A stretch of DNA of 45,564 bases, taken from the NCBI GenBank assembly GCA_016748015.1, contig JAAOMT010000029.1:65652-111215 (forward strand), given 5' to 3'. The DNA comes from Geosiphon pyriformis uo1 (Eukaryota; Fungi; Glomeromycota). Under the pieces are notes generated by a model. That model saw only the letters and a program-made list of their open reading frames with translations, made no database searches and was not told the DNA's origin. The number at the start of each line of letters is the position of its first letter. Position 1 is the first letter of the stretch. The translations under genes were made by a program, and so were the position numbers. Below, in pieces: positions 1 to 45,564 of the stretch.

Positions 1-439
1 AAAACTTGGATTTTATGGGGAAGTGTTCTGGGTTTAGTTATCAAGGCAATTCCGCAATTTCTTGTGCAGGTACGTAAATTTGACTAACTAAAATCTTTTT
101 TCGATTTGAAATTGAAATTTAATTGGTTTCATTTTCTTTCAGATCTTGTATCGGAAAAATGTTGTAACGTGTGATATCATTCCTCTAATCACTCTAATTC
201 TCAGCGCCGTTCTTCTTCTCAGCAATATATTGCACAAAATATTTTTCTTAATCCAACAGCTGAAAAAACCAAAACATCAGAAAGTCCCAAATTTTCTTAA
301 AGACGAAGAAGAGTTCAACAATTTAAAAAATCAAAAACTTAATGCGAGTACCTTTGATCTTGAGCCTTCGGATTCCTCCACAGTTATTGCAGATCACAAA
401 TCTGGTTTGTTATCAAAACCTTCTTTGGGAAGGGGTTAA
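1..439 (+). CDS. 3' part of a multi-pass membrane protein gene (5'-truncated by window), copy A; join(<1..69,143..439)
   Basis: GT-AG intron 70..142 (gtacgt...actaac...ttttctttcag). Spliced frame reads KTWILWGSVLGLVIKAIPQFLVQ|ILYRKNVVTCDIIPLITLILSAVLLLSNILHKIFFL, i.e. two hydrophobic helices and a charged tail. Near-identical copy at the other window end. Confidence 0.7.
43..422. repeat. Left arm of ~380-bp inverted duplication (partner 45185..45564)
   Basis: Reverse complement of 45185..45564 aligns without indels (position sum 45607). About 7 substitutions by eye, intron included. Confidence 0.95.
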
Positions 440-1514: not shown

Positions 1515-2543
1515 TATTTTAGATTAGTGTTTGGTAAGATTTTATTTATTCCCAAATATTTAAAATAATAGGCAAAAATTTTAATTGAATTTGGGTTTTA
1601 AATAATTAACAAGCTGTTTTATTTGATATAATGTTTTGTTTAATTATCACTAAAATGCAGCCTTGTTTATTGTACTTAGTTTCAAAAGCCTTCATGTGAA
1701 TCATAAAAACAAATATAATTCTTGAAAACTTTTACCATTTCTATCATATATTTTGGAATTCTTGTTCTGGTCCTAAAAACTAAATGGCAACAAACATTAA
1801 TGGTTAGGAATAAATGTTCTTTTTTTCACAATTTGGAATTTTCATAAACTAAATGCTTAAAGTTTGTCTTTATATTGCCATCATATTTATTAAACAGATA
1901 ATAACTTCAAAAATGCAGAAACCAGAAAAAAAATAGGTTTTTATTGTTAAACGAGTTGGTTAAAAACCATTATCCACTTTTTTGGCAGACACTAAATATT
2001 ATTGAGCACTTGAACTCTCTTGACAGATGTTTGTGCTGGAATGGTTATTAATCTAGTGAATTGAATACAACTAACGCAATCAATTTATAAAATGATTGAT
2101 TCGAAGATTATATTTTTCTATAATCTCTTTGTTGTTTAATATCATAACATAACTAAATAAGCCCTGCTTTCTTGAAGCCAAAAGAACAATTCCTATTATA
2201 ATTCTAACTCAAAACAAAAAAATGAATCTTTTTTGTTTGATAAGTTATGCTATAAAATTCTCTTATTCGTATAAGATTTAATTAGATACAAATTTCCCAT
2301 AATTTTCGATGCAGGACTGAATTGTAAGTTTTAATGAGAAATTCGGAGTTTTCGGTTCTCATATAAATAAGGGGCTAAAATTCTCAGCTCTAAAAAGGAG
2401 GATCGTCACTGGCTAAGCAGATTATACAGTCTAATTACTTCGACGTGTACCAACTTGAAACCTTATTAGCTGCTCATTATAAAGGAAATCCCTGATGCAT
2501 ATATTTTTCATCAATCCTAGCTCAAACTTACTGATATTCTCTC

Positions 2544-3516
2544 ATGTCAAATAAAGAAATTACATTATTACAACCCACTCCCAACATGGAGAATTCGGTC
2601 ACTGAATATACAAAAGCAGAAGAAGAAATCTTTTCCGAAGTGTGGAGAGTTTTTAGGTTGCGCAACGATAACTGGGTTAATGATGAGTCAATCTCAAACG
2701 AAATAAAGTGTTTAATCGACAATTCAAAGACGGATGCGGAACGTATTTCTCAAATGTTTTTTCAAAAACAAGTGAACCTGGAATATGCTTGTATACTGGC
2801 GCTGTTCAATTATTATGGAATTGGAATGCCAATTTATAGGGAACAAGGATTCGAGTGGTATAAAAGGGCTGCAGAGGAGGCAAACGATTTATTGGCCCAG
2901 ATAGAATTGGGATATTGTTATACACATTCCTATGGGACTCACCTTGACTATACTAAGGCCTTTTATTGGCACAAGAAAGCGAGTGATGGTGGTAGTCCTG
3001 GGGGTCATTATTTTCTAGGGACTTGTTATGAACAAGGTATTTTGGGATTTATGTATTATCTGATCTGCTTTAGCGTTCAGACTTTCCTTACCATCAACGG
3101 GCATATATTTCAATTCTTTTATAAAACCTGTTATTCATACTATCATGATTAACAATCTACTTGTATAATCTTTCTTACCAGGAATTGGAACCGAAAAGAG
3201 GCCTGAAATGGCATTCTTTTATTATCAAAAAGCTGTAAATGAACAATATTTTGGTGCGTTGCCTTGGCTTGCATGTTGCTATGAAAGGGGTTTCGGTACA
3301 AGCAAGAATGGGGTTAAATCTTTTTATTGGGCTGATAAAGGCCGTCAGATGAAGAACATTCATGCAACAATGAGTTTGGCAAGACTCTATGAAAATGGGG
3401 TTGGGAGATGTAGAGATATTCATAAAGCAATATACTGGTACAGCAAGGGCAAGAGCAAAGATGATGACAGATATGATTCGTTATTTGCTCTCAATCTTCT
3501 TTTCAAAGTTCAATAA
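2544..3516 (+). CDS. Sel1-like repeat (SLR/HCP-like) protein, ~275 aa; join(2544..3036,3182..3516)
   Basis: Repeated Sel1 motifs (AQIELGYCYTHSYGTHLDYTKAFYWHKKAS; LARLYENGVGRCRDIHKAIYWYSKG). GT-AG intron 3037..3181 joins CYEQG|IGTEKRPEMAFFYYQKA in frame. Confidence 0.9.
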
Positions 3517-5183
3517 AGTTGGGAATATGAATCTGTGTGTCATTCCTATTATGAAATTTATTATTGTGTGAAATGTTACTAGTAGATTTATTTGGGGGTG
3601 GGTATAGCAATTTTTCACAAAAATTACCCTTATATGGTTCGATATTTTATATTCTTTTACATAACATGTGTAGACCAGATGAAATTTTCTTTTGCGTTGT
3701 CTTAGTGTCCAGCTATTTCAAAAATATCCTCTGATTCGAGTATAGTAAGTGAAGAAATCATTTCGCCAAAAAATCTAGCGAATAGATTCTTACCCAAATT
3801 GCTAAAACAATTGAGAGGAATCAATATCTTTAAATTCAACATAATTTTGTAAAAAGCCGTTTACGACAAACATTCTTTTGAGTGGCGTTTAAGATAGAAA
3901 AAATTGAAGACTTTCTCATAATATATAAGGCTGCTTGATCAGAGAATTATTCCAATCCACTCTACTGCAATTAATTTCAAAGATAGCTTACAAATCTATT
4001 GTGAATTGGACTTTTGAGATATATTTTGATTTGAAAACCCGAATTTTGGCTCCAACAAAGTACATGTACGTATTTCTCTGTTTCTTATACATGTACATGT
4101 ATTTGAATAATTTTTACAATCAGATGACTTTACTCGATACGTTTTTGTTTATCACATCAGGTATAAAACTTACCCACACGTAAATTAGGTTTATTAAGTC
4201 TACTGTGTGATTTTGTGTTAAACAGATATAAATAAACCAGCTGTTAATTAGATTAAAAATTTGGGCAGGCTTAGTACATGTATATAATAGAGGGAAATTA
4301 TCAAACAAGGATATAAAAGGCTACTAAATAAATATATCTTTAAACTTTTCATTGAATTCAATTTTCATGCTAAGCCAGTATGAAAATGACTTAATTTATT
4401 GATCATCAATCACATCAAGTGTAAAATATCAGGTAAAACTTTAGCAAAATATCATTCATAACTTTTCAAGCGATAGAAATTATTCTAACTTATTAAATTC
4501 TGGATAAAATTAAAGTTAAGAAAATGTTTGCAAATAAAGTCAAGATCGGATACTTTGATTACAGCAACATGGTGCAATCAATTTAGAGCTTTCAGAAAAG
4601 ACAAGGGAAATTTGAATATTTTCAAATTTGACACCTTGAATTGATCCCAATATCAAAATCATTGCTTTTTAATTTTTGTCCTACATTACCTGTATTCGAA
4701 ATAGAGGGTTGCAAAAAGACTTTCAAAGCACAATGATTTCAGAAAAAGTTACAAAATCAAGTTCCCTGTTTTTGGAGTGTTAAATGCCCCCCTCCCCAAG
4801 TAAAATAGCTAAATCTGGAACTCATTCAAATTCATCTCATTTGACAGCACAAAATCGTCTGATTTTTTCCCCTATTTCATATGGTAGACAATACTCGGCA
4901 TATCGTATGATTTTTGGAACAATTTTTTACAAAAACGTGATGCATTATGTCTTGGCTTTTTACCCAACTCTTGCTGGAAGCTCTTATGAAAGGGTTGAAA
5001 ATTGAAAGTTTTTAAAGGAATCTTTTTATTCCACTTCTTTCTATTAAAATTCACAATTTTAAAGTCTTGAAAAGGAATTTCCTCAGTATTTATAACAAAT
5101 TTGATTATTCCAGTAAAGCAGTTCATCAATATTAACAATACCTACTTGACACTTTTTCTTGGTGAAAATATATAAAAACCCAA

Positions 5184-6385
5184 ATGACATTACCACCATT
5201 TTCTTCGGGTGACTTCCACTATACAGAGCTAGAATTTAAGGATATAGTTATTGATGAAAGGCATCCATTTTATATCGGTGACTGGAAAAAAGCAATTGCC
5301 TTCATTGACGACGATTTTGCAATGGACGATCTGGACGAGCCACACTTAAAACGAGGAATAACAATTTTTAAACAACATCCAGAAATCGAGAAGCTATATG
5401 GTTATGAGCCAAAAACTCTGCCAATCACAATTTTTGCCACAATTTTTCAATTATCTGCTGCTTATACCTTTGGAAAAGTCTTCAATAATTGCGATTGGAT
5501 ATTGCTAATTTATGCGTATATCATTGGGGGCTCCACATCACAACTTTTTGGTGTTATCATTCATGAAGCAGCGCATGGGCTTGCTGCTTCAACGCAATTT
5601 CAAAACCGGATCGTCGGACTATTAGCCAATATTTCGATTCCATTTCCAATCGCCATGTTATTTCGTCGTTATCATTTAGACCATCATAGATTTACTGGTG
5701 TTGTGGGCATAGATTTGGATTTACCCTTGGAATGGGAAAAAAAATTTATAAGAGGGAACGCGTTTTTAAAGTTTCTATGGGTTACATTTTATCCGGCGAT
5801 TTGCTCATGGCGAACGGTTAAACACTTAAGATCCCCTCAATACTGGGAATATATAAATGCTGTTTTTACAGCCACAAGCAATATTATTATCTTCTTTTTA
5901 TGTGGCTCGAGGGGTTTTTTCTTTTTGTTAATTTCCTCATGGTTTGGCTATGGACTTCACCCTGCTGCAGCTCATTATATACAAGAACATTTTACTTTTG
6001 ACGATGGTCAAGAAACTTATTCATATTACGGGAATTTAAATAAGTTGTTAATGAACATAGGATATCACAATGAACATCATGACTTTACACAGGTAATATT
6101 TTGTTTCTGATTTTCCAAATATCCTCCTTTTGAAAACGAATAAAAATTGGTTGAACACTATAGATTCCTTGGTCAAGATTGCCAAAAGTTAAGGAATTAG
6201 CTCCCGACTTTTATGAAAATCTTGCTTACCATACCTCATGGTTTGCAGTACATTGGAATTTTATTACGCAAAGACAATTTGGTCCACAAAGCCGCCTCTC
6301 TCGAACCATCAGTGATCACAAAAGGGGAAGAAAAATGCTTAGAAACGTAAAACATTTTTTTAATGACGAACAATATTACAATTGA
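5184..6385 (+). CDS. DES1: Sphingolipid delta(4)-desaturase/C4-hydroxylase family, ~376 aa; join(5184..6092,6164..6385)
   Basis: N-terminal DEPHLKR...HPEIEKLYG motif and three His boxes (HEAAH, HLDHH, HNEHH). Also HPAAAHYIQEH and QETYSYYG. Intron 6093..6163 gives HDFTQ|IPWSRLP. Confidence 0.93.
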
Positions 6386-9243: not shown

Positions 9244-11475
9244 AAAAAAAAATTTTGTATTTTCCATTTATTTAATCTAAAAAGCCAGAACTATCAATAA
9301 GATACTTTTTGTAATTTTTTAAAAATATATTAAGAATGTTAAAAAACTTTGTAGTTTAAAAAAAATTAAATCTTTCATTGGTTGTAAAGCTTGAAAATTC
9401 AAGATTCTTTGTTATATACTAATTAGCAATTTTGAAATGATCCAGAATCTTATATACATTCATATATTGGAAGACAAACAATAAAAGAAGTAAGGACTGA
9501 TTTTCCGCATTAATCTAACGAGAAAATGTTCTAAAAAGCGGCTTTTTTTTTGAGCTATTTTTGGAAGCATTTGTAAAACTTTAATGGAAAAACCTATAAG
9601 TCAATTAATATTTTCTGAATTTTCGAAGAAAGATTTGATCAAATTGAGACAGTGTGTTGCATTTTGAGAGAATATCATTTGATCCTTTTTTTAGATAATT
9701 GTACTTCCAAGGCTTACTAACTGCCTACCCAGTGTGTGGGAAATATTAACTAATCTATAGAGTTCCAAAAGGCAAAGTGTTTTTGTGTATTAAATAAGCG
9801 GTTATCTCATGGCATATTTTCATTTTCACACATTTTTCTAGACCTACCCGCTGATTATGTGTGTAATCTCAAACAACCCTGTCATTTTGTATTATCTCAA
9901 ATCTTTTCTTTATTTACATTAAAGAAATAAGGTTTGTGTTTGTTATTTAAACATTGTACATGAACTAATCTCAAATGATCATTTGTGTTCAAAACATTCC
10001 TTTTCTCTTTTAGACGCCAATTTTGGAAAATTGCAAAAATATATTGAAAGAACACTTGATCTACATTATATATTAATTATAGATTACTCACCAAAAGAAC
10101 AGAATTTCTCAAATCCCATTAAAATTTCATTTTAAAAAAATATTCATCTATTAATTTTAGATATAAAAGGAAAGATTTGAATCTTATTTCAAAAAAAGTA
10201 TAAAGATTGACAAAATTTCATGTTTTTTATCCGTTTACTCTCACCCCGAGCCGATTTTTCCTGCAAAAAATTGACCTTTACTATACTATATTACACACTA
10301 TTGTTACAGAAGATTCTCAAAATGACTTTGAGTACAATTCTCATTTGATNNNNNNNNNNNNNNNNNNNNAAAAAAAAATTTTGTATTTTCCATTTATTTA
10401 ATCTAAAAAGCCAGAACTATCAATAAGATACTTTTTGTAATTTTTTAAAAATATATTAAGAATGTTAAAAAACTTTGTAGTTTAAAAAAAATTAAATCTT
10501 TCATTGGTTGTAAAGCTTGAAAATTCAAGATTCTTTGTTATATACTAATTAGCAATTTTGAAATGATCCAGAATCTTATATACATTCATATATTGGAAGA
10601 CAAACAATAAAAGAAGTAAGGACTGATTTTCCGCATTAATCTAACGAGAAAATGTTCTAAAAAGCGGCTTTTTTTTTGAGCTATTTTTGGAAGCATTTGT
10701 AAAACTTTAATGGAAAAACCTATAAGTCAATTAATATTTTCTGAATTTTCGAAGAAAGATTTGATCAAATTGAGACAGTGTGTTGCATTTTGAGAGAATA
10801 TCATTTGATCCTTTTTTTAGATAATTGTACTTCCAAGGCTTACTAACTGCCTACCCAGTGTGTGGGAAATATTAACTAATCTATAGAGTTCCAAAAGGCA
10901 AAGTGTTTTTGTGTATTAAATAAGCGGTTATCTCATGGCATATTTTCATTTTCACACATTTTTCTAGACCTACCCGCTGATTATGTGTGTAATCTCAAAC
11001 AACCCTGTCATTTTGTATTATCTCAAATCTTTTCTTTATTTACATTAAAGAAATAAGGTTTGTGTTTGTTATTTAAACATTGTACATGAACTAATCTCAA
11101 ATGATCATTTGTGTTCAAAACATTCCTTTTCTCTTTTAGACGCCAATTTTGGAAAATTGCAAAAATATATTGAAAGAACACTTGATCTACATTATATATT
11201 AATTATAGATTACTCACCAAAAGAACAGAATTTCTCAAATCCCATTAAAATTTCATTTTAAAAAAATATTCATCTATTAATTTTAGATATAAAAGGAAAG
11301 ATTTGAATCTTATTTCAAAAAAAGTATAAAGATTGACAAAATTTCATGTTTTTTATCCGTTTACTCTCACCCCGAGCCGATTTTTCCTGCAAAAAATTGA
11401 CCTTTACTATACTATATTACACACTATTGTTACAGAAGATTCTCAAAATGACTTTGAGTACAATTCTCATTTGAT
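9244..11475 (+). repeat. Identical ~1.1-kb direct repeat (9244..10349 and 10370..11475) flanking a 20-N scaffold gap; probable assembly artefact
   Basis: Constant offset 1126 and no differences seen. Copy 1 ends and copy 2 begins exactly at the N run 10350..10369. Confidence 0.9.

Positions 11476-12385: not shown

Positions 12386-12390
<5 letters not shown>

Positions 12391-12436
<46 letters not shown>
12391..12436 (+). repeat. (CA)23 microsatellite
   Basis: Perfect CA run ending 15 bp before the LOV gene ATG. Confidence 0.97.
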
Positions 12437-12440
<4 letters not shown>

Positions 12441-12451
12441 TACATAATCAA

Positions 12452-13951
12452 ATGAACTTTCATCCCCAACGAGGATTACCCTACGCTAACTCAGAAAGCA
12501 GCGATAGTAGTCAAGAAGAGGATAGTGGACTTAACTCACATAATGCCGTGTTTATTTTACCAGATTCTTCATCAAATCCTCCTCTTCAGATTTCTTCTCA
12601 AAATTCTATTAATCAACTTCCTATGTACACTATAAACGACCGGTAAGTTCTTTAAAAAAAATAAATACGCAAAAAATTGAACCTTTATGATATCTTTCCT
12701 TCTTGTCGTGTGTAAAAATTTGAAATCTTTTAAGCGCCTAGTCAAACCCAGCACTATTCTTTTAAAATAACAGACAGAACAACGGCTCATTAGACCACTC
12801 ACTACAACACCCACAGTATAATTCTTCCCATAGCACATCTATTGCTCAAGCCTTTTTTGGATTTACCCGTAATAATTACAACCAATCTAGTTCCCATTCC
12901 ATCAACTCATTATCATCCTCCAGATCATCTCGAGACACAACGACTTCAAGGCAAATTCCTCCGTTGCCTCCGGTATTACCAGGTCTTATTCAATATATTA
13001 TCAAAATATCAAACTCTTAGCATTGATGAGCTCAAAATATAATTATATCTGAAAATCTTTCTTTATGGATCTAGGTTTAGGAATAATTTATTCAACCTCT
13101 GGATTCGACATGTTAGGCATTTTGGTAAAAACTTTGAATATAAAGAAAATTTTGCTTTCCTTTATTTAAATATAATTAACTCAAAAATATTTAAATTAAA
13201 TTTAAGGCTCGTGTAGCCACCAGGTAGATGATTATTTAAAAATTTTTTAATTTCATCTGAATAAAGAAAGCATCTCAATCCAAATCATATAAATGTAATT
13301 AGTTACAGCCCACGTGATGTTCATTTGTCACATTTTTAATCCCATCTTTAAAGCCTGAGCTTTTCATCAAACTATGTTTTTATTTATTCCCATTTTAATA
13401 GACCCAACCCACAGATTGATCTTGGACCAGTTGATCTCAATTGTTCATTAATAGTAGGTGAGTAAGATTGATCAAAGATTTAAGGTGTTCTCATTTAAAA
13501 AAAAAACTACATGTTTTCCTTGTTATGAATTTGCAGTTGATGCACGGAAACCTGATCTTCCTGTTGTGTATGCCAATGATTCATTCGAAAGATTAACTGG
13601 CTACCCACTTAGGGAAATAATAGGCCGTAATTGTCGGTTTCTGCAAGCCCCAGATGGTCATGTGACACTTGGATCACGTCGTGAACATACTGATCCGACA
13701 ACCGTTTATCATATGAGGAATGAAATCAATTCGGGACATGAATGTCGCGCCAGGGTAATAAACTATCGAAGGAATGGTCAGGTAAATAAAACATGAGATT
13801 TTAAATTCTTTTTCAACACCCAATTAATTAAAACTTGAATCTTTTTTAATTTATGAAGAGATTCTTGAACGAAATAACAGTTATTCCAATAAGAGGGGAT
13901 TATGACGAACTTTCATACTATGTTGGTTTTGCGGTTGGAATTGAAATGTAA
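12452..13951 (+). CDS. Short VIVID/ENVOY-like LOV-domain blue-light sensor, ~286 aa; join(12452..12642,12774..12982,13075..13124,13207..13223,13402..13457,13537..13781,13859..13951)
   Basis: Seven phase-compatible exons. Fungal LOV N-cap IYSTSGFDMLGILARVATRPNPQIDLGPVDLNCSLIV and core GRNCRFLQAPDG with the fungal E-F loop insertion. Ends NYRRNGQRFLNEITVIP...YYVGFAVGIEM*. N-terminus is Ser/Asn/Gln-rich; no PAS or GATA domains follow. Confidence 0.9.
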
Positions 13952-15044
13952 CAAGGCAGACCATAAAATAATTGGAATTTGCTCTCAGAACACAACGAGC
14001 TAAGATTAAGGATTCATATCAGATAAGCACTAGGATCACCAGTCAAAAATTTGTTATTTTCATATCGGATGAGATCAGGTTTTTCGACTTTTTGATAAAA
14101 TTTGCACCTTTGCTTTTAAGCCATTCTTCCCGGGAACACACAAATATCTTTAAAAAGCATGGTTATGAAGTAAAAAGACCTTTTAACTTTACCCATATAT
14201 GAGCTATATCATCTGAATTACAAAATTTGTTAGAGGCTAGGATTAAAAAAAACAAGATTTGCCTGTTCATATAACAACTCAAGTAAAATCGAGTCGGATG
14301 GAGGAATTGAAAAATACCTGTGGATCCTGGATTTAGATAAAAGTACAAGTGAATTGAATTTGTATTGTGTGAAATAAAACAAATAAAGATAATTCTTGAG
14401 ATAAATAAAAATATTTTGTTGTTATTGAGTTGCTAACCCAAATATACAAGTTTTATCATTCAACAAATATGAACGCCCAAATTTTCTTGGCATGATTGAC
14501 ATCTCACTATTTGTCAGAATAAAGTTTTCCATGCTGTGCATGATAAGCAAAAAGTTGAATTTCTATTTAAGGTGTCACTTATCATTCCTTTTTCTGCAAA
14601 AATACTTGACAATCTATTACTTTCGTTTGATAGTATTAAAACAAAAAGCTTATTTTGTTGATTTTCATTAAATTTTGAAAAATTAGTTACAGTTACCATT
14701 TATTTTGCCAATTTATCCGAAGATTTCCACTTTCAATAAAAAAATAAGTACGGTTTCCAGAATTATTGCCCCTTTTTCTTTAAAAAAATTCCAGGGTCCA
14801 GTGATAAATTGTGATCATCCCTTAAATTGTGAATCCAGGTAAATATGTGACATCAGAGTACAAATTCATAGTGTATCCATCTTTTTTCACAGAAAACGAC
14901 ATTTATCAATCGAAACGAGCGGGCACTCTTTCTAGCCATTGAGGCTTCTTCGAACTTTATTAGAATAGGCTATTCTTTAAGAAGGTGCTATTGGCTTTTT
15001 GAAAGGTAATCTAAATTGGGAAGAAAAAAACTATCCATGATAGT

Positions 15045-18000
15045 TTATAACAAAGTAGTGATTCCAACTTCAATAGTATCTTCAGTTGGAATTTCCCAGT
15101 TGCCGTGCAAATCTCGGGAATTATTTGCCATAAACTGATAGAAGTTCAATAAGGGAGCTCTTAACCAATTACCGAGCCTTGGACGTATTTTATGTCGAGT
15201 AATTACGTAGGTCACCGCGGGGCTCCCAAGTAATTGGTCTGCCTTGAGAGATTCTCGTTCGGGATCAACTTTTATTATTTCTTGAATTAATTTCTGAATA
15301 AAATCTGATGACTGTATTACGGGCTCGATATAACCGTAACGAGCTATTACTCTGTACGCCCCAGCAAATTCACTAATCTTACGCACCACCAATCGATCTT
15401 CCTCACCAACAAAGGGAACAGCTACTGGTCGAATTGATATAAAAACCAAAGTCTCATGCACAGCCGATAAATGTTGTACAAAATGCCTGAAACTTAGTGG
15501 AATACTGAACCCAGCATCTTGATAAAATAGCCCGATGCCAGGAACTCGATGAATCTTTGAATTATTGCCAAGAAGTCGTAATTTTTGTGGTTGTAAAGTT
15601 GGAACAAATGAGATTGTGGGATAACTTTGAATAAATTCTGTCGTTTTAGTTTCAGGGATAACGTGACCATTGTCTTGAGTTATCTTAGATATGTCATTGT
15701 CTGATTCTATATTCTCGGGTGAAAGGGTATTTGAAGATGTGACAGGAAAATTTTGACTAATGAACAAATTTTCAAGACGCACTTTGTTCTTCGATTCATA
15801 TTCAATTCGAAGTGTAGTCCCCCATTTCCAAATAAACATTATTGTTGCCAAAATGAATCCAGAAACCAACGTGAACCAACCACCATCCTTGACCTTCCGT
15901 AGAGATGAAATCAAAAAAGCCCCATCCACAAGACCAAAGAAAAGCAGAAATGTGATTGGGACGAGAATATGCTGGCGCCAGACCACGTACATTACCACCT
16001 TTAATCAGAATTGACAAGATTAGTAAATGATCAAGGAAAAGGAAAATACTTAAATGATGTAATTTCTCTTTACCGAAAGTAAAAGTGTTGTTATAAACAT
16101 GACAGAGGCAACAGACACCCCAAAAGCACTAGTGAGCCTTGCCGATTCTTTGAACGTAACCACAATAATAAGGACCACGACCATAAGAAAAAAATTTACT
16201 GCAGTTTTTTAAATCAACAAATGGTTACTGATTAGTTGAATTTTTTTAAGCATGGAAGTGCAAAGGTCAAGGTTCTTTGAATAGATCATTTACTTTCAGG
16301 GATATAAACTTGCCCTTGATGTTGGCGAGAAGTATATACAATCTTTAAAGAATTATAAAAATAGTCAAATACACAGATAAAGAGGGAATAAACATAATAA
16401 TATATCAATATACCTTAACCCTAGGGAAAAAATCAAGTTGCATCGCTTGATGAAGCAAAGTGAACGAGGCCGAAATTAATGCTTGAGACCCTATAATTGT
16501 TGCTCCTATAGCTAGCGAAAAGATAAACCAATAAATGACATCCTGTTGAGGGATTGTTAGCCAAAAAACATTTGTGAAAAGTTCCGGCTCATTAACTAAT
16601 CTAGCACCCTGGCCCATGTATACAAGTATCAATGGTGGATAAACGAGACAAGGAAAAGATAATTGAATGGCGCGACGATTAAAATGACCCATGTCAGCGT
16701 ACATTGCCTCAACACCGGTGACAGCAAGAACGACACCGGCAAGCGAGTTAAATCCTTCTGTGCCTTTTCGTGTAAAATATTGGAAACAATAATATGGATT
16801 ATAAGCTTTCAAGATTTGTGGATGTTTGCTGATATTCCAGATCCCGATGCAACCAATACTAATCATCCAAAGAAAAATAATTGGAGCAAATACAATGCTG
16901 ACTCTATCGGTGCCGAATCGTTGTCCGAGAAAAAGTAAAACTATAATTAGGCTGAAATTACGACCTTGTTAGACCATAAAATATAATATCAAAGCAAGGT
17001 TAAAATCTGAAAATCATTTTGTTTACCATGATATGGGAACTACTGCAGAGGACAATTTTGGAACTGAAATTTCTATTCCTTCAACTGCTGAGATAACTGA
17101 AATTGCCGGAGTTAATAGTCCATCGCTTAGAACGAGCGATGCTCCAGCAAGCACTAAGATGAGTAAAACTTTTTGAACAAATTTGTTTCGAGCGATAAAG
17201 TCTGATTTCTCTTTGGCGCTATGAATGGAAACCGTATCATAATTGACAATCTTAAGGTCATCCTCATGTTTTTCACCTCGAACGGCTAGACCAGAATATC
17301 TAAAGTTAAATCAAGAATTTAACATTAACTCTCTATAGTTTCTTACTTTCTGATAATTATCTTGGAGAAAAAAATTTGCGACCTGCCTTGTAAGAAGCGA
17401 ATAAAGAGCGAAAGTCCCGCCTTCCCCGTTATCATCAGCCCTAATGACAATAAAAACGTACTTTATCAACGGCACGATTGTCCTGAAAAAAGTTATCTGA
17501 TTGAATTAAGTTGCAAACAGTACAAAAACAGAAACCATAGCAAGCTGACTATCCTTAATCTTACAAAGACCAAATAATGAGAGAGAGAGTTCCTATTAAT
17601 AAAATTTTCCCAAGTTTTTTCACTTGTGTGGCAAATATTTTGTAAAGGATCAAACAAAAATTACCATAAACATCACGAGGATCTTTTGGGGCCTCTGAAA
17701 ATATTCCCGTATAAGCATACAATGGAGAAGTTGCAAGATCCCCATAGATTACACCTGAAGCCAATGTAAAATGGGAATGAAATTCGATTTTTTACAAGAC
17801 AAAACTATTTTTTCTAAAAGATTATACCTAAAGACTTGAATGTCAAAATAATTGTCCCAATTGCGGTGACCTGAAGAAATTGCAAAAGGAAAAAGATATA
17901 TGTTCCAACTAACTAATCAGAAATAATCCTAGATCCATCTCTGAAGTAATAAGAATTGGGCTAGCCTTTTTGCGTGGTCTAAGCTTGCTTTCTAAAGCCT

Positions 18001-28280: not shown

Positions 28281-28975
28281 TTATTATTTAGTAAACTCAT
28301 TCAACTTTAATGGAGAAATGAGCAATTTCTAATTTGTAAATATTTTTGACAAATATCTTCTCATTTCTTTGATAACAGTCTTGTCCAATTTCAAAGGAAT
28401 CTCATAAGACTTTTACCAATATGTTTAGACTTTATAAAATTTAAATTTCTAGTTTTTCAATCATTTTTTCCGAATTTTAAAGTTTAATATACCCAGTATA
28501 TTATTCATTTGGAAAATAAAAAAAATCTTTCTTTTATCGAGCTTGGCTTCTCAATACAATTCGAACAATGAGAATTGATCTTTGATATTTCTTCTTTACT
28601 TGTAAATTTATTTATTACTCAAATGAAACATTATTTTATAATTAAATAATCCCGAAAAATCCCGTAAATTTTAGTTTTCTTCATCATCACAAGAGTAATC
28701 AAACAAAATTGACAGCTCGTGAATCTTTTAATATAATTATTAGCTTAGTAGTAGCAAATTCGCGCAAAGTCATATATTATTCCTTTTCCTCAATCTCTTT
28801 TTTACTTTTACTTTTTTTTTTCTTTTTTTATTTTTATTTTTTATACTATGAGAATAATATTATGCTCTAAAAAATTTATAAAGCTATTCCGAGGATCAAA
28901 GGAACTTAAAATTTTAATCGTAAAAATACTAAATTCATTACATCTCAAAGAACATTCTCTTCTTTTCATTTTAAA

Positions 28976-29862
28976 ATGAATTTCATTTCATCATACAATC
29001 TTCCCTTGTACCATTCAAAAAGATATTACGATTGTCAATTCGAACTTTTTTGGCGAAAAGTTAGCCAGCAAAACTCATCAATTTCTTCACGTAAAATCAT
29101 TCAATCTATTTTATTACTCTTCATATTGATATACCCAATGATACATATTTATCATAAGCATAATTATCATTTATCGAAAAAATTAATACAAAATGATTTA
29201 TACAATACGACAATGCAAAAAAACCTTTTTAATTTTAGTTATGAAATAAATCGGTTTCCAAATTTAGTTAGTCGAGAACTAAGCAAAAGTATCAGTCATT
29301 TCAAAATAAGGGTTTCCAGTCCTGCTTTCTTACAAATGACCCAACAATACGCATGGTATGCCATGAAATCTTATTGTTTGAACAAGAAAAATATCGTTGC
29401 TCCAGGAATTTATGGTAATTTTTTATCTATCTCGACAGCTATGAAATGATTTATTTTTCAAAAAGTTAATTTTTATAATTTCTGTAAATTATAACCCCAG
29501 CAAACATTAAAGTCGTGCAGGACCAAATAATTCTAAGCGTCAGGGGACCAAATTTAAATGATCCCAAATATTGGGAATCAAGAAGTCACGAGCTTATTGC
29601 CTTCCAAGGAGTTCATGGTGCAAAAGTTGATGCGGTATTTTATCAACAATTTCAGAAAACTAAATCTGCCCTAGGGGATGAAATATTGGAAACAGTAAAG
29701 GCAAATGAGATTTATACAGTCGCGTCTGTTGGCCATGGTGCAGGTGGTGGTAAGCAGACTCATACCCTAAAAAATAATTCATATATTCTATATTTAAGCG
29801 GAAATTTGAAAAAAAAAATTTATATTGTGCTCTCTCTCTTTTTCTCTCTCTTTTTCTCCCTC

Positions 29863-29956
<94 letters not shown>

Positions 29957-30592
29957 ATTATTTTATTTATCATCTTAGTTTTCGCCACATTTGCTCTATT
30001 GGAGTTTTGGGAACAGATCAATTCTATTAATGCTAAGATAGCAGAATTTGAAAATTTGATCAAAGTTCAATTAGTATTGGTCAGTTTCGGACAGCCACAC
30101 ATTGGCAATAAAGTCTTTGCACAATATATGAATGGACTTCAATATAAAGGAATCTTGAAGGTCTATCGATTTACTAATACAGACGATATGGTGCCGAGAC
30201 TACCTGCTCGTGTTGAAGGGGCTTACCATCATTATGTGCATAGTGTTTTCGAAGTATGGCAAGGTGAATCCACTTGTGACTGTCAACAAGAAGATACCAT
30301 CCTATATTTATGTAAAGGTCAAACACTATCAGACGAGAGAGGTATTCCATTAATTGAGGAAAGTCAGGTAACTATTTTAAATCATTTAAGCCTTTTTACT
30401 CTTACACAAAAAAATTAAACTTAATTTATTCAATTAAACTTTGCTTTTCTCAATTTTTATAAAAAGGAATGCAATAATAAATATGGGATAGCTCATTTTA
30501 CTCCACACAACGGGCCATATTTGCAAGTGCCAATGGGCAGTTGTTTAAAAGACATTCCTCCATGGGAAAAACCCATCTTCCACATACATTAA
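28976..30592 (+). CDS. Class-3 lipase-fold protein 1 (nucleophile Ser replaced by Gly), ~400 aa; join(28976..29414,29501..29749,29979..30367,30467..30592)
   Basis: Lipase_3 motifs in order: YAMKSYC, ILSVRGP, VDAVFYQQF, SVGHGAGGVFATF, SFGQPHIGNKVFA, YRFTNTDDMVPRLP, YVHSVFEVW, HNGPY. N-terminal hydrophobic anchor; canonical introns. Confidence 0.9.
29830..29956 (+). repeat. Imperfect (CT)n microsatellite within lipase-1 intron 2
   Basis: Seen directly; source of the SLSLSL and ERERER pseudo-ORFs. Confidence 0.95.
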
Positions 30593-32018
30593 CATTTAAA
30601 CCATTTAAATCCATACTTTCCTTTCTCAATTACTCATATAAGGTTGGTTTTTTTTATCAAAAAGTTTCTTTTTCTTTAAAATAATCAAAGATATCTTAAA
30701 AAACTTTTTTTTTGCCATTTTTAATTATTTGATTAAAAAAATTTTCAATTTAATTGGCTGTACAAAAATTGTTCATTATAGAAATCGATTTAGGGATTTA
30801 AATTTTTCACATGTATTAAGTAATATGGAGCGATTAATAAACCTATTCTCTCAAAATATTGAATTCCAAACTCTAGACCCAGACAAAGAGCTTCATATTT
30901 TTCAACGGAAAATTTTGGAAAACAAAAATTTTAATTGGTTGATGATTTATGAAACTAAATATTTATCCAGTTTCATCTTTATAGGTATTGAAAAAATTCG
31001 CCTAATCGAATAAACAGACCATTAAAATAAATTATGATGATGATGATGATAATGCTAAAAGGAAGGTGGGTATGACCTGATTCCTAAATCGCCTGAATTC
31101 CCAACAAATTTTCATATCATGATATTAATATATATATGTATAATGGATCAGGCCAAAATTTTATTTAATTCCTATCAAAAATATCGGGATAGATGATCAA
31201 TAATCAAATATTTGCATTGGGTTTAGCTGTCAATTTGTTCCATTGTCAATCCCCAAACGATGAGAAACTTTATGTCAGGTGAGAATTTTCCTTGTTCCTG
31301 TTACGACTTATGACCTGCATCACAAGCTCTTACTTCTTTATCAAATTTATCTATTATTTCTTATGAAGATCTGTTTGTAATTATTTTTCTTATAGATAAA
31401 GTTGACAAACAATGAGAGTACCCCAAATTTTTTTGAAGAATTTCCTACATGTCTTAATTAGAGCCTTAATAGAGATTTTCGTGATAAATTTTTTAACTTT
31501 TTTATAAAAACAAAAATACTAAAACAAAAATTAAAACTATTCACACATGATTTTTTTTTTTCTGAAAATTATTTTGAAATCTTTTTTTTTTTTTTTTTTT
31601 TTTTTTTTTGAAAATTAAAAAACTGTTTAAAAAAAAATTTATAACAGAATTTATTCAAAAAAATATTCATAATTAAAAACTTTTTATCATGTATTAAATA
31701 TTAAATTTATTATGAATTTAAAATTTATTATTATTTTGAAAATTTTTAATTAAAATTGTAAAAAATTAGGTTTTAAATATATTGGATAAAATTTTAATTT
31801 TAATTAAAATCTCAATTATCAGATCAAAATATTAATTATATTGAATTATTATTATTATTATTATTATATCCAAATGGTATATATTTAATAAATTTTAAAT
31901 CTGTTAATAAACTGATTTTACTTTATTTAAAAATTATTTAAATATTGAATAAAATTATTTATAAAATAATGATAATAATAATAAAAATAAAAATAAATAA
32001 AAATAATAATAACAAAAA

Positions 32019-32029
<11 letters not shown>

Positions 32030-32077
<48 letters not shown>
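32030..32077 (+). repeat. (TAA)n microsatellite in extreme AT tract
   Basis: Seen directly. Confidence 0.9.
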
Positions 32078-32078
<1 letters not shown>

Positions 32079-33386
32079 TGTTGTAATTAAAAAAAAAGTA
32101 TTACAATTATTTTCAAAAAATGAAAATTTGAATGATTATAAAAATATTTTTATTTTAAATATTAATAATGTAATTAATATTCTTTATTATTTTATATTTA
32201 AATATAAAATCCAAAAAAAAATAAAAATGAAAAGATGAATAAAAAAAAAGTAATTTTTTTTTGTATTTTGTAACAAATAAATAAAGAATCAGAAATTTTT
32301 TTTTTAAAAAAAAACCGTTTCAAATTTTAAATGACTTTATTTATTTATTTATTTATTCAAATACAAAGTAATATATTATTTTGAAGAAAAAAATATCATA
32401 AATAGTCAGTTAAAATTTTCAAAAAAAAAAGTTATTAATGAATCGATTAAAGAATGAATGTTTTCTTGACAAATAATATTGGAAAAAAAAGTAAAAATTA
32501 ATTTCATTAGTTTAATTTGTTTGTTTAAACTATATTTTGAAAAATTGTGTTATGCTGAAAAAAAAATGTAATGAAATATTTTATTTAATTTTTACAATAT
32601 ATATATATATGTATTTTTTTTTTTAAAAAAAAAAAAAGTAATTAAAAAACTTATTTTTAATATTTTAAAAGGAAAAAACATTTTAAAAATAAAAAAACTT
32701 TTTGTATTATTATTATTATTTTTTTTAAAAAAAAAGCATGATAATCTCTGATTAACCAATAATACTCTGTTTTTTTTTTGGTGAAAAATAACTATCTACA
32801 TATTTTGGTTAATCTCCTTTGAGTTTGTCGCAGAATGGAAGATTTATGTATTATTTACACATTTAGCTTTATTAGCTTTGCTTTGTCGATAAGCTATTTT
32901 GGGCTAGTAATATCCAAATTTGAAATTTTATTCTCAAGTTTTTGTTCAACAATGATTTCATATTTAATGATCGCGGAGATAGAATACATGATAACTTTCA
33001 AAACAATCTAGTTAAAGTGTTATTATTATTATTATTATTATTTTTTGAAATTAGTTATTTATGATAATCATAGCTCTTTGTTTAATAATAAAATGGGTAA
33101 TCACGTTTGAAACTATTCGATTGGATTTCAAATTTTGTTTTGCCAAACCATTTATATTGTATTTTTTTTGAAAAAGTGCTTTTCCAAATTCATGAAAAGA
33201 AGGGATGAATTGGAGCGTAAATTATTTTTCACCAAAGTTTAAAAATTATTTATCGATCGATGGTCTGAAAAAATTGCTTTAAAAATGAGGTCAGTTGAAT
33301 AAAAAGTTTTTGTATCATAATTATTCCCTTATAAATTTGCTTTTTAATTATTAAAAAATTTTATTTGTTCACTTTTCTTTACCCTC

Positions 33387-34846
33387 ATGACACATTCAAA
33401 TTTTATTATTTTGAAACATTTAATAAAACGATACAAAGTTTTTGATCTGTTGAAAGAGGGAAATGTTTTGCTCAAATTTTTGATTGCAAACTTATTATTC
33501 CTATTTATATGTGGAATTATATTAAGTCAAATGAGCGAAAAGTCATCATTATGGACATTAAATCTCTATTTTGAGAATTCGACTAACCCTCAGACCCTTC
33601 CAATTCTTGCGTTAAAAAATATTTCAATTATCCCTTCTTTCGGGAACCAAAATTTCACACCTAAAAGTCCGGAACGGGAAAATTTTACAATTTCCTATCA
33701 TACATTTAATTCCATTTCTAAGCATAAACCTTTCAATAAAAAAAATACCAATGGTTTTAAAGCAAAATTAACCGATTTTCAACTTGAAAAATCCAAAAAA
33801 TATGCTTGGCATGCATCACAAGCATATTGTCTTAAAAATGAACATTTAATTGCTTCAGAAATTTATGGTATATGTTTTTTATTTTTTAAAAAATAGGAAA
33901 CAACAAGAGCTTGATTTATTTAAAAATATTTATTTTTAGCAAATGTTGAGGTTCAAAAAGGAGAAATTATTTTGACTTTCAAGGGTGAAAAAGTGAATTA
34001 CCAAAGTTATTGGGACGGACGAGAGAAAGGCCTTATTCCATATCAATATAACCAAAGGGCGTTTGTCGATAAAATTTTCTTTCAGAAATGGAATCAAACT
34101 AAAAATTCCGTCTCAGAACGTATAATTGAAGAGATCAAATATCATGGTATATACACTATTGTAGCGGTCGGACATGGGATAGGTGGTGGTAAGCTTTTTA
34201 TATTAATCAAAATCTCTGATGATTATTTCACTTCAACCTTTGAGTTTGATAATAAGTTTCCTATTTTTATTTTATTTTTTTTAACTTTACATTAGTCTAC
34301 GCGACTTTTGCAATTCTAGAATTGCTAGAAATTTTAAAATATTCGAAATTCAAACTAGATCCTATTGTACGTGCTCCAAAGCTTTCTTTGCAAGTATTTA
34401 CATTTGGCCAACCCCACATTGGTGACAGAGAGTTTGCAAGACATGTTAATGATTTAATGTTCGAAGGAAAGTTATTAGTTTATAGATTTACGAACACAAA
34501 CGATTATGTTCCTCAATTACCAGAAAGTACATTTCAAAGCTATTACACTCATCATGCTTGGGAATATTGGATTGCATCAGATTGTGAATGTGCACTTCCT
34601 GAAGTTTATGTTTGTCAAGGACCAAAAGTTTTCGAAGATGGTAAAACATACATTGGAGAAAGTCAGGCAAGTTTGATTTAACCATTTTTGAAACTCAATT
34701 TTTTGCATTTCAACTGACTTTTTTAATATTATTAGGAGTGTAATAACAGCCTCCAACCAAGTTTTACATCACATAATGGTCCATACTTAGATATAATGAT
34801 GGGAGACTGTATACGAACAAACCTTCAAAAAGAACGAGTAGCTTAA
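33387..34846 (+). CDS. Class-3 lipase-fold protein 2 (Ser>Gly), ~403 aa; join(33387..33867,33940..34188,34296..34666,34736..34846)
   Basis: Same exon structure as paralogue 1. Motifs HASQAYC, AVGHGIGGVYATF, TFGQPHIGDREFA, YRFTNTNDYVPQLP, HNGPY. The last intron uses a GC donor (gcaagt, 34667). Confidence 0.9.
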
Positions 34847-36960
34847 ATCTTGATTAACAAAATATAGATTCTTGAATTCAGACTTTATTTATTTATTTAT
34901 TTATTTATTTAAAAATTTATTTAAACTTTTATTTAAACTTTTAATAAAAAAAATGTGTTTTAACTATATAGTATAAATTATTTAAAAAATCTCAATTGAT
35001 ATTTTTATTGAAACTTCTTTGGTTCCCGAGAAAATGTTAAAGTTATAATTTTTATCTTTGCTGTAAGCTAAGAATTTCCACCATTTTTTTTTGATGCATA
35101 AACTACCTCATCTGGTCATCTTGTATCAAAATAAAACAAAACCAGAATCGTTTATGAATCATTAACTTTCTGAACCGGTTATATTTTTATCTTAATTGGT
35201 CTTGTTAAAAGCAAGATATCTTTAGTTAAAGAATATTTTCTTTTTTAATTATATAATCATTGACCTAGGGAATATCAATTTTTCAATTTATTCTATAAAC
35301 TCTTACAAATGAAAAATGAATTTTCATTTTTTTGAATATTTCAAAAAAAACATTGATATTTTATCCTTAACGTTTCGTTTATTTGAAAGGTAAAAATTTG
35401 TTAAAATCGCTAGTTTTCATTTTTTCGCTAATTAACAATATTATCCACAGTGTTATTCAGACTAAAAATTAATTAGGCTGTTATCCTCGGGGATGAATTG
35501 AGCAAAATAAACTTTTTTCCTAGAGTTAAACTATGCTTAATGCTTCTAACACGTGGTTAGGTATATTAATTGCTTAATCTGTTGGCATTTCATATTCGGA
35601 AGAAATATCTAATGCGAATAATTCTCAGGTGATGGTGTCATGGGTACGGTTAAGCTGAATCTCAAAAGTTTAAAACTATCTTGATTTCCAGAATCTATTA
35701 TTTATCAGATTAATGGAAAAGAGTTTCGTGAAAGAGCTAGATTTTCATATAATAAAACTTTAAAAATTTTGTTAGATTTTTAAAGAATTAAAGTAGCCTT
35801 GGTTCTCAAATTATTCGTTAAATTTCATATAGTATTCGTATATAACCTCTCACCATTGTGATTTCTTCTAAAAGAATATGAATTAATTGAGCTTTTTGTT
35901 TTGCAACTTAAAATTATTTTTAAATTTCTCTTGAGCTTAGGGAGTACTATTGATAACCATAAATTTTGAATAGAGTCCTATTAGCGAATGCAGCTTGTTA
36001 AAAAATTAAGATTTTCTACAATGTTAATTGATAAAGGTTAATTTAAAGGATAAAATCTATTATAAAAACTTTTAGCTTATGAATAAAAATGATTTGTATG
36101 CTATTGAGGATAAAAACTATTTTTATAACAAGCACAAGAAATTTTCTTTTAAAATTTTCTTCAATGTATAATACATTGAAGAAATAACCTTTTACATCTT
36201 TTTATAATAATACTTTCACAAAGATAACAAATGAATTTTAAAACTAGAATGAAATCAGTATTTTTTTATGCCCTTTGACAAGAAATACTCTAAAGTTTGG
36301 ATTTTTTTAACTTTATTACATTCTAAATATATATATTAAATTAAAATATAAAATATTTTCTTTTATATTTGGTTTCCTAAGAGTAAATTTGATCAGAAAA
36401 GTAAAGGAAAAAAAATGTTTCTTACATTTCTTTTATTGAAGAGTAAAAAGTTTGGTTGATAAATCACTTTTTTAACAAAAATTCAGCCTACCTTAAAATT
36501 TATTTTTCTATCCAAAAAGGAATTTTCATACCCGTTCCTTTACCGGTGCTGGTCTCCGATCTTGTTCATTTTTTAATTAAGACAAACAAATATTAAACTA
36601 ATTTTCTGGCAAAAAAATAAAAATCGCTTTAAATCCATATTAAGAGGCGTTGGTTTATCAATCATATTCAATATTTGAATTTGTTCGCTTTCATCAAAAT
36701 GAAGAAATTTTGTTTAATCAAATTGAATATTTATACTGTTTGATGAGATTGCCGTAAAAATCAAAAAGGTCATAGAACTTTAGGAATATAACTTTTTAAA
36801 TCTTGGACCTTGAAAAATTGCTATCATAATGAAATTTTTCTTTATTTTGTTGCGAATTGATAGTTTTCCATTTTGAAAACTCTGCAAATTAAAAATAAAT
36901 GATCTCTGGCGAATTTTTTTATTGATAAAAAAGCGGTTTATTGATAGCTTTAAAAGATTA

Positions 36961-38583: not shown

Positions 38584-38995
38584 GATTCAGTAGATTAAAA
38601 TATTTTACAAGACAAACTCATTTTCAAATATTTTTCAACTCGTCAACTTCAAAGGAAAATTTTGTTAAAATCGTAAGTGTTTCACCAGCAGGAACTTGCT
38701 TAACTAGAACGGATTAAAATTCAGCTTTTTTGAGTCAAAAAGTTTTGTGCCGAAATATTTACCAAATAAAAATTTAAGCTTCATAGAATTGAGGATAGGT
38801 TTAAAATTTAAATTCCCTAGACTATGTAAAATTAAAAAAAAAATTAAAAAAAAATGGGAATTATTTTTTAAACATTAATAATTATGAGTACAAACAAAGT
38901 TATTTACATGGTATTGATAAAACTCAAAAAATGCTAATTTTGAAAACTTTTTTAAATCTCAAGAGAAGCTTAGATATAGATCTGTATGTATATGT

Positions 38996-45182: not shown

Positions 45183-45564
45183 TCAAGGTTTTCCTAACAA
45201 GCCAGATTTGTGATCTGCAATAACTGTGGAGGAATCCGAAGGCTCAAGATCAAAGGCACTCGCATTAAGTTTTTGATTTTTTAAATTGTTGAACTCTTCT
45301 TCGTCTTTAAGAAAATTTGGGACTTTCTGATGTTTTGGTTTTTTCAGCTGTTGGATTAAGAAAAATATTTTGTGCAATATATTGCTGAGAAGAAGAACGG
45401 CGCTGAGAATTAGAGTGATTAGAGGAATGATATCCCACGTTACAACATTTTTCCGATACAAGACCTGAAAGAAAATGAAACCAATTGAATTTCAATTTCA
45501 AATCGAAAAAAGATTTTAGTTAGTCAAATTTACGTACCTGCACAAGAAATTGCGGAATTGCCTT
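45183..45564 (-). CDS. 3' part of membrane protein gene, copy B (5'-truncated by window); complement(join(45183..45464,45538..>45564))
   Basis: Inverted near-identical paralogue of 1..439 with the same intron. Ends ...SGLLGKP* instead of ...SGLLSKPSLGRG*. Confidence 0.7.
45185..45564. repeat. Right arm of ~380-bp inverted duplication (partner 43..422)
   Basis: Direct reverse-complement match. Confidence 0.95.

What the first reader, a model, noticed from the sequence alone, without database searches (positions are those of the whole stretch)
13859..13951. Natural glutamine-less LOV domain: VGFQ replaced by VGFA while the photoactive Cys is kept
Seen: the last exon reads RFLNEITVIPIRGDYDELSYYVGFAVGIEM*, with codon gcg at 13931-33 where LOV domains have Gln. 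This is two substitutions from cag, so a single-base error is unlikely. GRNCRFLQ and both flavin-binding Asn positions (INY, FLN) are intact. Established: the I-beta Gln (Q182 in VIVID, Q513 in AsLOV2) reads flavin N5 protonation and relays the light signal. Gln-lacking LOV receptors exist and can retain partial signalling. Inference: this may be a fungal photoreceptor with an altered photocycle, or a redox/oxygen-biased or decoy LOV. It could be useful for optogenetics.
Basis: partly seen in the sequence, partly recalled or inferred. Interest (0 to 1): 0.78.

Follow-up and report, generated by a model that had tools for sequence, protein, structure and literature searches.

The report
Glutamine-less VIVID-like gene in Geosiphon
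This fungus (Geosiphon, which houses cyanobacteria) has a spliced gene for a small blue-light-sensor-type protein whose usual signalling glutamine is an alanine, a loss shared with two Ambispora relatives, and it likely acts as a slow-resetting brake on the fungus's main light receptor, a role so far described only in sac fungi.

Summary
Codon 13931-33 is GCG, and a spliced contig from a second study carries all seven exons, the same codon and the stop, so neither an error nor another last exon explains it. The gene is Geosiphon pyriformis G9A89_005658, mis-annotated in NCBI; correctly spliced it encodes 286 aa: low-complexity N-terminus, VIVID-type N-cap, one LOV domain, no effector. Two Ambispora gerdemannii proteins form a clade with it (100/99) and also lack the Gln (Ala, Ile) and the Asp two residues on, while Cys and six other flavin-pocket residues are invariant. 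Geosiphon also has a normal WC-1. Gln-less LOVs are not new: a published list already holds 15 fungal-type rows, some VIVID-like, and this scan earlier met a Gln-to-Ala LOV in another fungus. What I could not find in print is a LOV-only VIVID-like family in Glomeromycota; VIVID is described as Ascomycota-born. Best reading (0.45): a photoactive, slow-recovering photoadaptation partner of WC-1. Against it: VVD Q182L lost light-induced dimerisation, the tree cannot place the clade, and no function was measured.

The parts
12452..12642 (+). Exon 1 (ATG at 12452), low-complexity Ser/Asn/Gln-rich N-terminus
   Evidence: X2 contig piece 12454-12641 and joint 12641/12773; open frame
12774..12982 (+). 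Exon 2, low-complexity N-terminus up to the Pro-rich segment before the N-cap
   Evidence: X2 piece 12773-12980, GT..AG joints
13075..13124 (+). Exon 3, N-cap latch with the Tyr equivalent to VVD Tyr40 (13089-91)
   Evidence: alignment of the ortholog to VVD chains
13207..13223 (+). Exon 4, 17-nt micro-exon (end of N-cap helix); absent from the NCBI model
   Evidence: 14 letters between the sides of joint 13125/13400 in X2 match it; GT..AG flanks and frame
13402..13457 (+). Exon 5, N-cap hinge and first beta strand with the Cys equivalent to VVD Cys71 (13442-44); absent from the NCBI model
   Evidence: X2 piece 13400-13455; P0002 lacks it
13537..13781 (+). Exon 6, LOV core with GRNCRFLQ, the fungal extended loop and the first flavin Asn
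   Evidence: X2 piece 13535-13779; 100% match to P0002; PAS_9
13632..13634 (+). Adduct-forming Cys codon TGT (VVD Cys108 equivalent), residue 207
13859..13951 (+). Exon 7, last two beta strands and stop TAA (13949-51)
   Evidence: X2 piece 13857-13961, no gap
13931..13933 (+). GCG, Ala281, at the position of VVD Gln182
   Evidence: the ortholog's Ala aligns to the VVD Gln
13937..13939 (+). GGA, Gly two residues after the Ala, where WC-1-type LOVs have Asp; Gly in all three clade members
   Evidence: Gly in 3 of 3 clade members and 1 of 301 other fungal-type domains
13952..14160 (+). 3' untranslated region (minimum extent); contradicts the extra 3' intron and C-terminal extension of the NCBI model
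   Evidence: X2 contigs cover 13857-13961 and 13941-14160 without a gap

Best explanation
The gene is a spliced, LOV-only paralog of the fungus's White Collar-1 receptor with Ala in place of the signalling Gln, and it likely works like VIVID: it would bind flavin, form the Cys adduct in blue light, recover slowly, and damp White Collar-1 by pairing with its LOV domain. Shown: gene structure, Ala codon, intact Cys and pocket residues, a three-member Archaeosporales clade that all lack Gln and the following Asp, and a separate Gln-keeping WC-1 in both species. Predicted: VVD fold and an N-cap-mediated LOV-LOV interface. Inferred from other LOVs: water in the space left by Gln relays N5 protonation with reduced amplitude, a blue-shifted spectrum and slower recovery. 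Inferred by analogy: photoadaptation of the White Collar complex; origin by partial duplication of wc-1.
For: Seven-exon spliced contig and open 286-aa frame. Architecture N-cap + LOV + stop, as VVD; best PDB matches by sequence and fold are VVD then ENVOY (E 2e-40; model of the ortholog pLDDT 87, rmsd 1.2-1.3 A to several VVD chains). Cys and six other pocket residues plus the Tyr40 equivalent are invariant in 3 of 3 members although only 81 of 150 columns are. WC-1 with Gln is present in both species (P0005, P0006). In YF1 most Gln substitutions, Ala included, keep signalling, and Q123L recovers 10-fold slower (PMC9098866 section 6). Predicted complex of the Ambispora ortholog with Ambispora WC-1 LOV: score 0.72, best control 0.15, runs agree in at least 98% of contacts, partner pLDDT 91; the mark was reached by 51 of 78 solved and 2 of 108 mismatched pairs (eukaryotes 39 of 65 and 2 of 126); but a like complex is solved (VVD dimer 3RH8) and close cousins pass 10 of 12 times, so this shows likeness only. 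Exon 6 has the same two limits as ORFs 82-98% identical to Glomeromycete WC-1.
Against: In the closest characterised protein, VVD, Q182L 'completely prevents dimerization' (Cys-less, photoreduced background; PMC4682037 passage). The clade has also changed the outer sheet face (Leu to Glu/Cys/Asn at one column, Asp to Gly at another) and one member has Thr at the Cys71 position, which VVD needs for WCC binding (PMC4433212 passage on C71S). The clade diverges far faster than WC-1 (61-71% against 98% between the same two species). No enrichment of GATC-type elements upstream (5 GATC in 1.5 kb against 3.85 expected; 0 paired motifs), no light-regulated expression data, no biochemistry. All three members have Val at the Ile85 position, which speeds decay in a VVD double mutant and could offset the slowing.
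Confidence: 0.45

Rival explanations
1. Uncoupled decoy: the protein binds flavin and may form the adduct, but loss of Gln and Asp locks the N-cap in one state, so it binds WC-1 LOV constantly and damps it in proportion to its own amount, not its light state.
For: VVD Q182L loses the light-induced oligomer change; Gln, Asp and an outer-face Leu are lost together in 3 of 3 members; the predicted N-cap interface with WC-1 is retained (likeness only).
Against: Invariant adduct Cys and pocket in 3 of 3 members is more than a light-blind decoy needs; Gln-less YF1, AsLOV2 and a natural bacterial receptor still signal. In VVD the Gln-less state was the monomer, not the dimer.
Confidence: 0.2
2. Stand-alone photoreceptor with another partner: the LOV domain controls the ~130-residue low-complexity N-terminus or an unknown protein, independent of the White Collar complex.
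For: All three members keep a 100-170-residue low-complexity N-terminus, longer than in the VVD-type proteins seen here (197-215 aa in all); outer-face changes could mark a new partner.
Against: The N-termini are not visibly conserved and Pfam finds only PAS there; WC-1 has a similar low-complexity N-terminus, so it may simply be inherited.
Confidence: 0.15
3. Decaying truncated duplicate of wc-1 with no current function; Gln loss is relaxed selection.
For: Long branches (stem 0.32-0.38, tips 0.18-0.64 against under 0.03 for the WC-1s of these species); found in only 2 species; not found among the hits for A. leptoticha or other Glomeromycetes in four searches.
Against: Open frame across six intact GT..AG introns, spliced transcript, retention in two families of Archaeosporales with a further duplication in Ambispora, and invariance concentrated on pocket residues.
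Confidence: 0.1
4. Redox or oxygen sensor: flavin reduction, not light, protonates N5, with water relaying the signal; useful next to an oxygen-producing, nitrogen-fixing symbiont.
For: Gln-less, Cys-less LOVs are proposed to resemble redox ancestors (PMC9098866 section 10); Geosiphon hosts Nostoc (PMC13315312 passage); the Cys71 equivalent, which has a solved sulfenic form in VVD (3IS2 title), is kept in 2 of 3.
Against: The adduct Cys is kept in 3 of 3; the family is also in Ambispora, for which I know of no cyanobacterial partner (recalled), so it predates that symbiosis; no extra conserved Cys.
Confidence: 0.07

Closest known systems
Neurospora VIVID (VVD) and Trichoderma ENVOY
   Same: LOV-only architecture, N-cap with Tyr40 and Cys71 equivalents, extended loop, stop right after the last strand; best sequence and fold matches in PDB; coexists with a full WC-1.
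   Different: Gln182 is Ala/Ile and the +2 acidic residue Gly; only 43-49% identical to four VVD-type proteins against 56-65% to Glomeromycete WC-1 (three VVD-type rows in the matrix); longer N-terminus; outside Ascomycota, where VVD is said to have arisen (PMC9616733 passage).
White Collar-1 of Glomeromycota/Mucoromycota (e.g. Geosiphon G9A89_021509)
   Same: Closest by identity (63-65% for two members); same limits of the LOV-core exon; same N-cap motif.
   Different: No PAS-B, PAS-C or zinc finger; lacks Gln and the D-L-V-E-Q-P tail; evolves much faster.
Natural LOV-deltaQ receptors (Dietler et al. 2022, PMC9098866)
   Same: Meets their filter: nine of nine conserved positions present, Gln absent; their list holds 15 fungal-loop rows, three ending like Xylariales VVD.
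   Different: These three proteins were not found in the held list text (accession and motif searches); none of the 15 fungal-loop rows has Ala; none was characterised in the sections read.
Other Gln-less fungal LOVs met here: Xylaria VVD (Ile), Rhizopus stolonifer WC-1 paralog (Leu), unnamed P0360/P0370 (Val), P0363 (Ser)
   Same: Cys kept, Gln lost.
   Different: They sit in separate places of the tree, so the losses are independent, and they keep the +2 acidic residue.

Membership tests
LOV domain | PAS fold with GxNCRFLQ motif and two flavin-binding Asn | tested here: met
   model and Foldseek
LOV domain | Conserved Gln on the last strand | tested here: not met
   Ala in genome and spliced contig
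LOV domain | Binds flavin and forms the Cys adduct in blue light | not testable with these tools
   residues present; needs spectroscopy
LOV-deltaQ class (Dietler 2022) | At least 8 of 9 conserved residues, Gln absent | tested here: met
   criterion from section 22; G, N, C, R, F, L, Q, N, N all present
VIVID/ENVOY | LOV-only protein with N-cap (Tyr40, Cys71), extended loop, no effector | tested here: met
   Cys71 equivalent is Thr in one Ambispora paralog
VIVID/ENVOY | Orthology (one clade with ascomycete VVD) | tested here: inconclusive
   free trees place VVD with ascomycete WC-1 (87/86, 91/86) and leave this clade in a polytomy; AU test does not reject clade+VVD (p 0.103) nor clade+five Glomeromycete WC-1 (p 0.24)
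VIVID/ENVOY | Gln182 | tested here: not met
   Ala/Ala/Ile; note that some true VVD-clade members lack it too (P0426, P0443)
VIVID/ENVOY | Light-dependent binding to WC-1 LOV and photoadaptation | tested here: inconclusive
   predicted complex passes (0.72 against 0.15) but by likeness to the solved VVD dimer, and says nothing on light dependence
VIVID/ENVOY | Light-induced, WCC-dependent transcription | not testable with these tools
   only contigs of one presumed RNA run; a crude upstream motif count showed no enrichment
White Collar-1 | LOV + PAS-B + PAS-C (+ GATA zinc finger) | tested here: not met
   stop at 13949-51 inside the spliced contig; full WC-1 is a separate gene (P0005)

The most novel reading that the evidence does not exclude
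Archaeosporales evolved their own VIVID independently of Ascomycota, by truncating a wc-1 duplicate, and fixed the loss of the signalling Gln and the following Asp as a tuning step that gives a long-lived, water-relayed light state for photoadaptation; Geosiphon, which carries photosynthetic Nostoc, kept and expresses it.
Probability: 0.25. Interest if true: 0.75.

Novelty: new variant of a known kind. Interest (0 to 1): 0.52.

Why it matters
VVD is held to need Gln182 for its switch, while other LOVs do without it; a natural VVD-shaped family that lost the Gln in all members, with a Gln-keeping WC-1 in the same cell, is a direct test of whether the N-cap switch can run on water. It would also put a photoadaptation-type regulator in Glomeromycota, where a survey that did not sample these genera found VVD only in Ascomycota, and give a first handle on light sensing in the one fungus with intracellular cyanobacteria. 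The corrected exon structure is needed by anyone who expresses it: the NCBI model lacks the N-cap hinge and first strand.

Tried and rejected
Sequencing or assembly error at the codon: rejected (two studies' contigs, ortholog with Ala). Another terminal exon supplying G-F-Q: no second LOV-type motif in six frames of the window and no read support. NCBI model P0002 (intron 5 read as coding, 3' extension): rejected by the X2 joints. No run was on record as RNA; X3 and X4 did not cover the codon. No whole genome is held, so synteny, wc-2, frq and the wc-1 gene structure of Geosiphon could not be examined, and no DNA of the Ambispora genes was available for dN/dS. More orthologs: four protein searches (best 120-150 listed each, word-based candidate step is lossy: P0124 was missed) gave only three members; 90% clusters hold one member each; this is not proof of absence. 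Placement of the clade: unresolved; only sisterhood to the two Archaeosporales WC-1s alone was rejected (p 0.012), which long branches may affect. Upstream light-response motif count: no enrichment, low power. Neighbouring genes (Sel1 repeat, desaturase, K+ transporter, lipases) give no functional link. ESM Atlas returned only short ascomycete PAS_9 clusters and WC-1-type models. Scan notes by sequence and by place returned nothing.

Full report
Observation. Exon 6 matches 100% a protein named Geosiphon pyriformis G9A89_005658 (P0002; KAG9306758.1). A 913-nt contig of run X2, from a different study than the possible source run X1, is spliced at five listed joints, carries 14 extra letters that match a 17-nt micro-exon, and reads through the Ala codon and the stop with no other letter there. 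Joining these exons gives six GT..AG introns and an open 286-residue frame. Two of four runs cover the codon; all are contigs, and the tool marks X2 as possibly DNA, so 'transcript' is my inference from the splicing. The NCBI model drops exons 4 and 5, reads intron 5 as coding and adds a 3' extension; X2 contradicts both, and even that model has the Ala.

What it is. The protein is a low-complexity N-terminus, a VIVID-type N-cap and one LOV domain, ending five residues after the Ala. Geosiphon has a separate full WC-1 with the Gln (P0005). Two proteins of Ambispora gerdemannii, the same order Archaeosporales, have the same build and also lack the Gln: P0003 has Ala, P0124 Ile. The three form one clade (100/99 in a 68-row tree, 100/100 in a 36-row tree; rows chosen by me from 305 complete domains, one incomplete row dropped). 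Of 429 proteins held at that point, 305 spanned N-cap to last strand; among the 301 outside this clade 292 have Gln, none Ala, and nine have a gap or another residue, three of them read-through fragments. The set is dominated by unnamed WC-1-type ORFs and is not a census. All three members have Gly two residues after the lost Gln, against 1 of 301, and a non-Leu residue at an outer-face column where 286 of 301 have Leu. The adduct Cys, six other pocket residues and the Tyr40 equivalent are invariant, against 81 of 150 columns overall. VVD residue numbers Tyr40, Cys71, Ile74, Ile85, Cys108, Met135, Met165 and Gln182 come from the papers read; the other numbers and the choice of pocket residues are recalled, apart from the nine.

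Structure. An AlphaFold2 model of the Ambispora ortholog (stand-in for the window protein; mean pLDDT 87, alignment of 43 including VVD-type rows) puts the Ala on the last strand and matches VVD chains best, then ENVOY; sequence search agrees and aligns the Ala with the VVD Gln. A predicted complex with the Ambispora WC-1 LOV scored 0.72 against a best control of 0.15, with at least 98% contact agreement and partner pLDDT 91, through the N-caps; the mark was reached by 51 of 78 solved and 2 of 108 mismatched pairs. A like complex is solved (3RH8) and close cousins pass 10 of 12 times, so this shows that the interface is compatible, not that the pair binds.

Origin. Identity is 56-65% to Glomeromycete WC-1 and 43-49% to VVD-type proteins. 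Three unnamed ORFs 82-98% identical to Glomeromycete WC-1 begin and end at the limits of exon 6, and twelve ORFs break at its 3' limit, which suggests shared intron positions with wc-1 (inferred from ORF ends, not from gene models). The free trees put VVD with ascomycete WC-1 and leave this clade unresolved. AU tests do not reject grouping with VVD (p 0.103) or with five Glomeromycete WC-1s (p 0.24) and reject grouping with the two Archaeosporales WC-1s alone (p 0.012). Some residues are shared with VVD-type proteins (Leu73, Met135, Arg136 columns and an Asn seen in 3 of 301), which fits convergence or old common descent. Independent origin is therefore favoured but not shown.

Mechanism. In YF1 most replacements of the Gln, Ala included, keep light regulation; Q123L is blue-shifted by about 8 nm and recovers ten times slower, and water is proposed to stand in (PMC9098866, abstract and sections 6, 9, 10 part 1, 22 read). 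VVD dampens the White Collar complex by light-induced sequestration (PMC4039372 abstract; PMC10219052 and PMC4433212 passages). I therefore favour a photoactive, slow, VVD-like partner of WC-1 (0.45). The strongest contrary result is that VVD Q182L, in a Cys-less photoreduced background, does not dimerise (PMC4682037 passages); with the coupled losses on the outer sheet face this keeps the uncoupled-decoy rival at 0.2. Val at the Ile85 position could shorten the cycle. The clade diverges much faster than WC-1 (61-71% against 98%), so decay is not excluded (0.1). Nothing here favours redox sensing (0.07).

What is known. Dietler et al. report about 350 natural Gln-less LOVs. Their Suppl. Data 3 is held as 264 lines, so it may be incomplete; I read parts 1 and 5 of 5 and searched all of it. 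Part 5 ends with 15 fungal-loop rows (Met, Leu, Ser, His, Arg; no Ala), three ending like Xylariales VVD and one being RCI05841.1, which names as Rhizopus stolonifer. Searches for the Geosiphon and Ambispora accession prefixes and motifs found nothing; one supplement file of scans was unreadable. A survey of 45 proteomes says VVD arose in the ancestor of Ascomycota (PMC9616733 passages), and its supplements do not name Geosiphon or Ambispora. Nine literature searches listed no paper on this family; the library lacks most subscription papers, including, as far as these searches show, the Geosiphon genome paper, which I did not see. Also seen: PMC10386755 passages, the first third of bioRxiv 2020.10.05.326595, PMC13315312 passages on the Nostoc symbiosis.

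Verdict. Real, conserved and apparently expressed. New variant of a known kind, interest 0.52.

Noticed in passing
window 9244-10349 and 10370-11475: A perfect 1106-bp direct duplication separated by 20 N, about 1 kb upstream of the gene: a scaffold-gap overlap artefact, most likely; the X1 contigs laid showed no joint.
   Followed up: partly
window 43-422 and 45185-45564: 380-bp inverted copies, 98% identical, near both ends of the window, each with a ~105-codon open frame without Pfam match; probably a dispersed repeat or transposon end. The ORF at 869-1243 looks like a Tc1/mariner transposase fragment (recalled motif; Pfam found nothing).
   Followed up: partly
window 28900-38600: Cluster of class 3 lipase-like genes on both strands (Lipase_3 hits at 34256-34678 + and 37157-37558 -; similar ORFs near 29488-30418), apparently with Gly where the G-H-x-x-G-G motif normally has the catalytic Ser (ORFs read GHGAGGG, GHGIGGG): possible pseudo-lipase family.
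   Followed up: no
window 15045-17310 (-), 5166-6110 (+), 2535-3516 (+): Neighbours: KUP/HAK potassium transporter, sphingolipid delta-4 desaturase, Sel1-repeat protein.
   Followed up: partly
window 12389-12437: (CA)n microsatellite ending about 15 bases before the ATG; the X2 contig has 44 bases upstream of 12454, so it may lie in the 5' UTR.
   Followed up: no
window 12878: X2 differs from the window here (A>G, non-synonymous, codon 99 in the low-complexity part): allele, isolate difference or editing.
   Followed up: no
P0426, P0443, P0035/P0451, P0360, P0370, P0363: Independent Gln losses in other fungal LOVs: Xylaria VVD (Ile), Rhizopus stolonifer WC-1 paralog (Leu), unnamed ascomycete-type ORFs (Val, 18-member cluster; Ser).
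   Followed up: partly
P0238, P0450: Unnamed WC-1-like protein (605 aa) with Ala at the adduct Cys and Cys at the Gln position: a natural Cys-and-Gln-swapped fungal LOV.
   Followed up: no
P0151, P0372, P0386: LOV-only annotated proteins (189-270 aa) of Rhizoctonia/Ceratobasidium that keep the Gln and form their own clade (100/100) within Basidiomycota: possibly another independent VIVID-like truncation.
   Followed up: no
P0219-P0231, P0242: Very large multi-LOV proteins (up to ten domains) in which many repeats have Leu, Met, His or Ala for the Gln.
   Followed up: no
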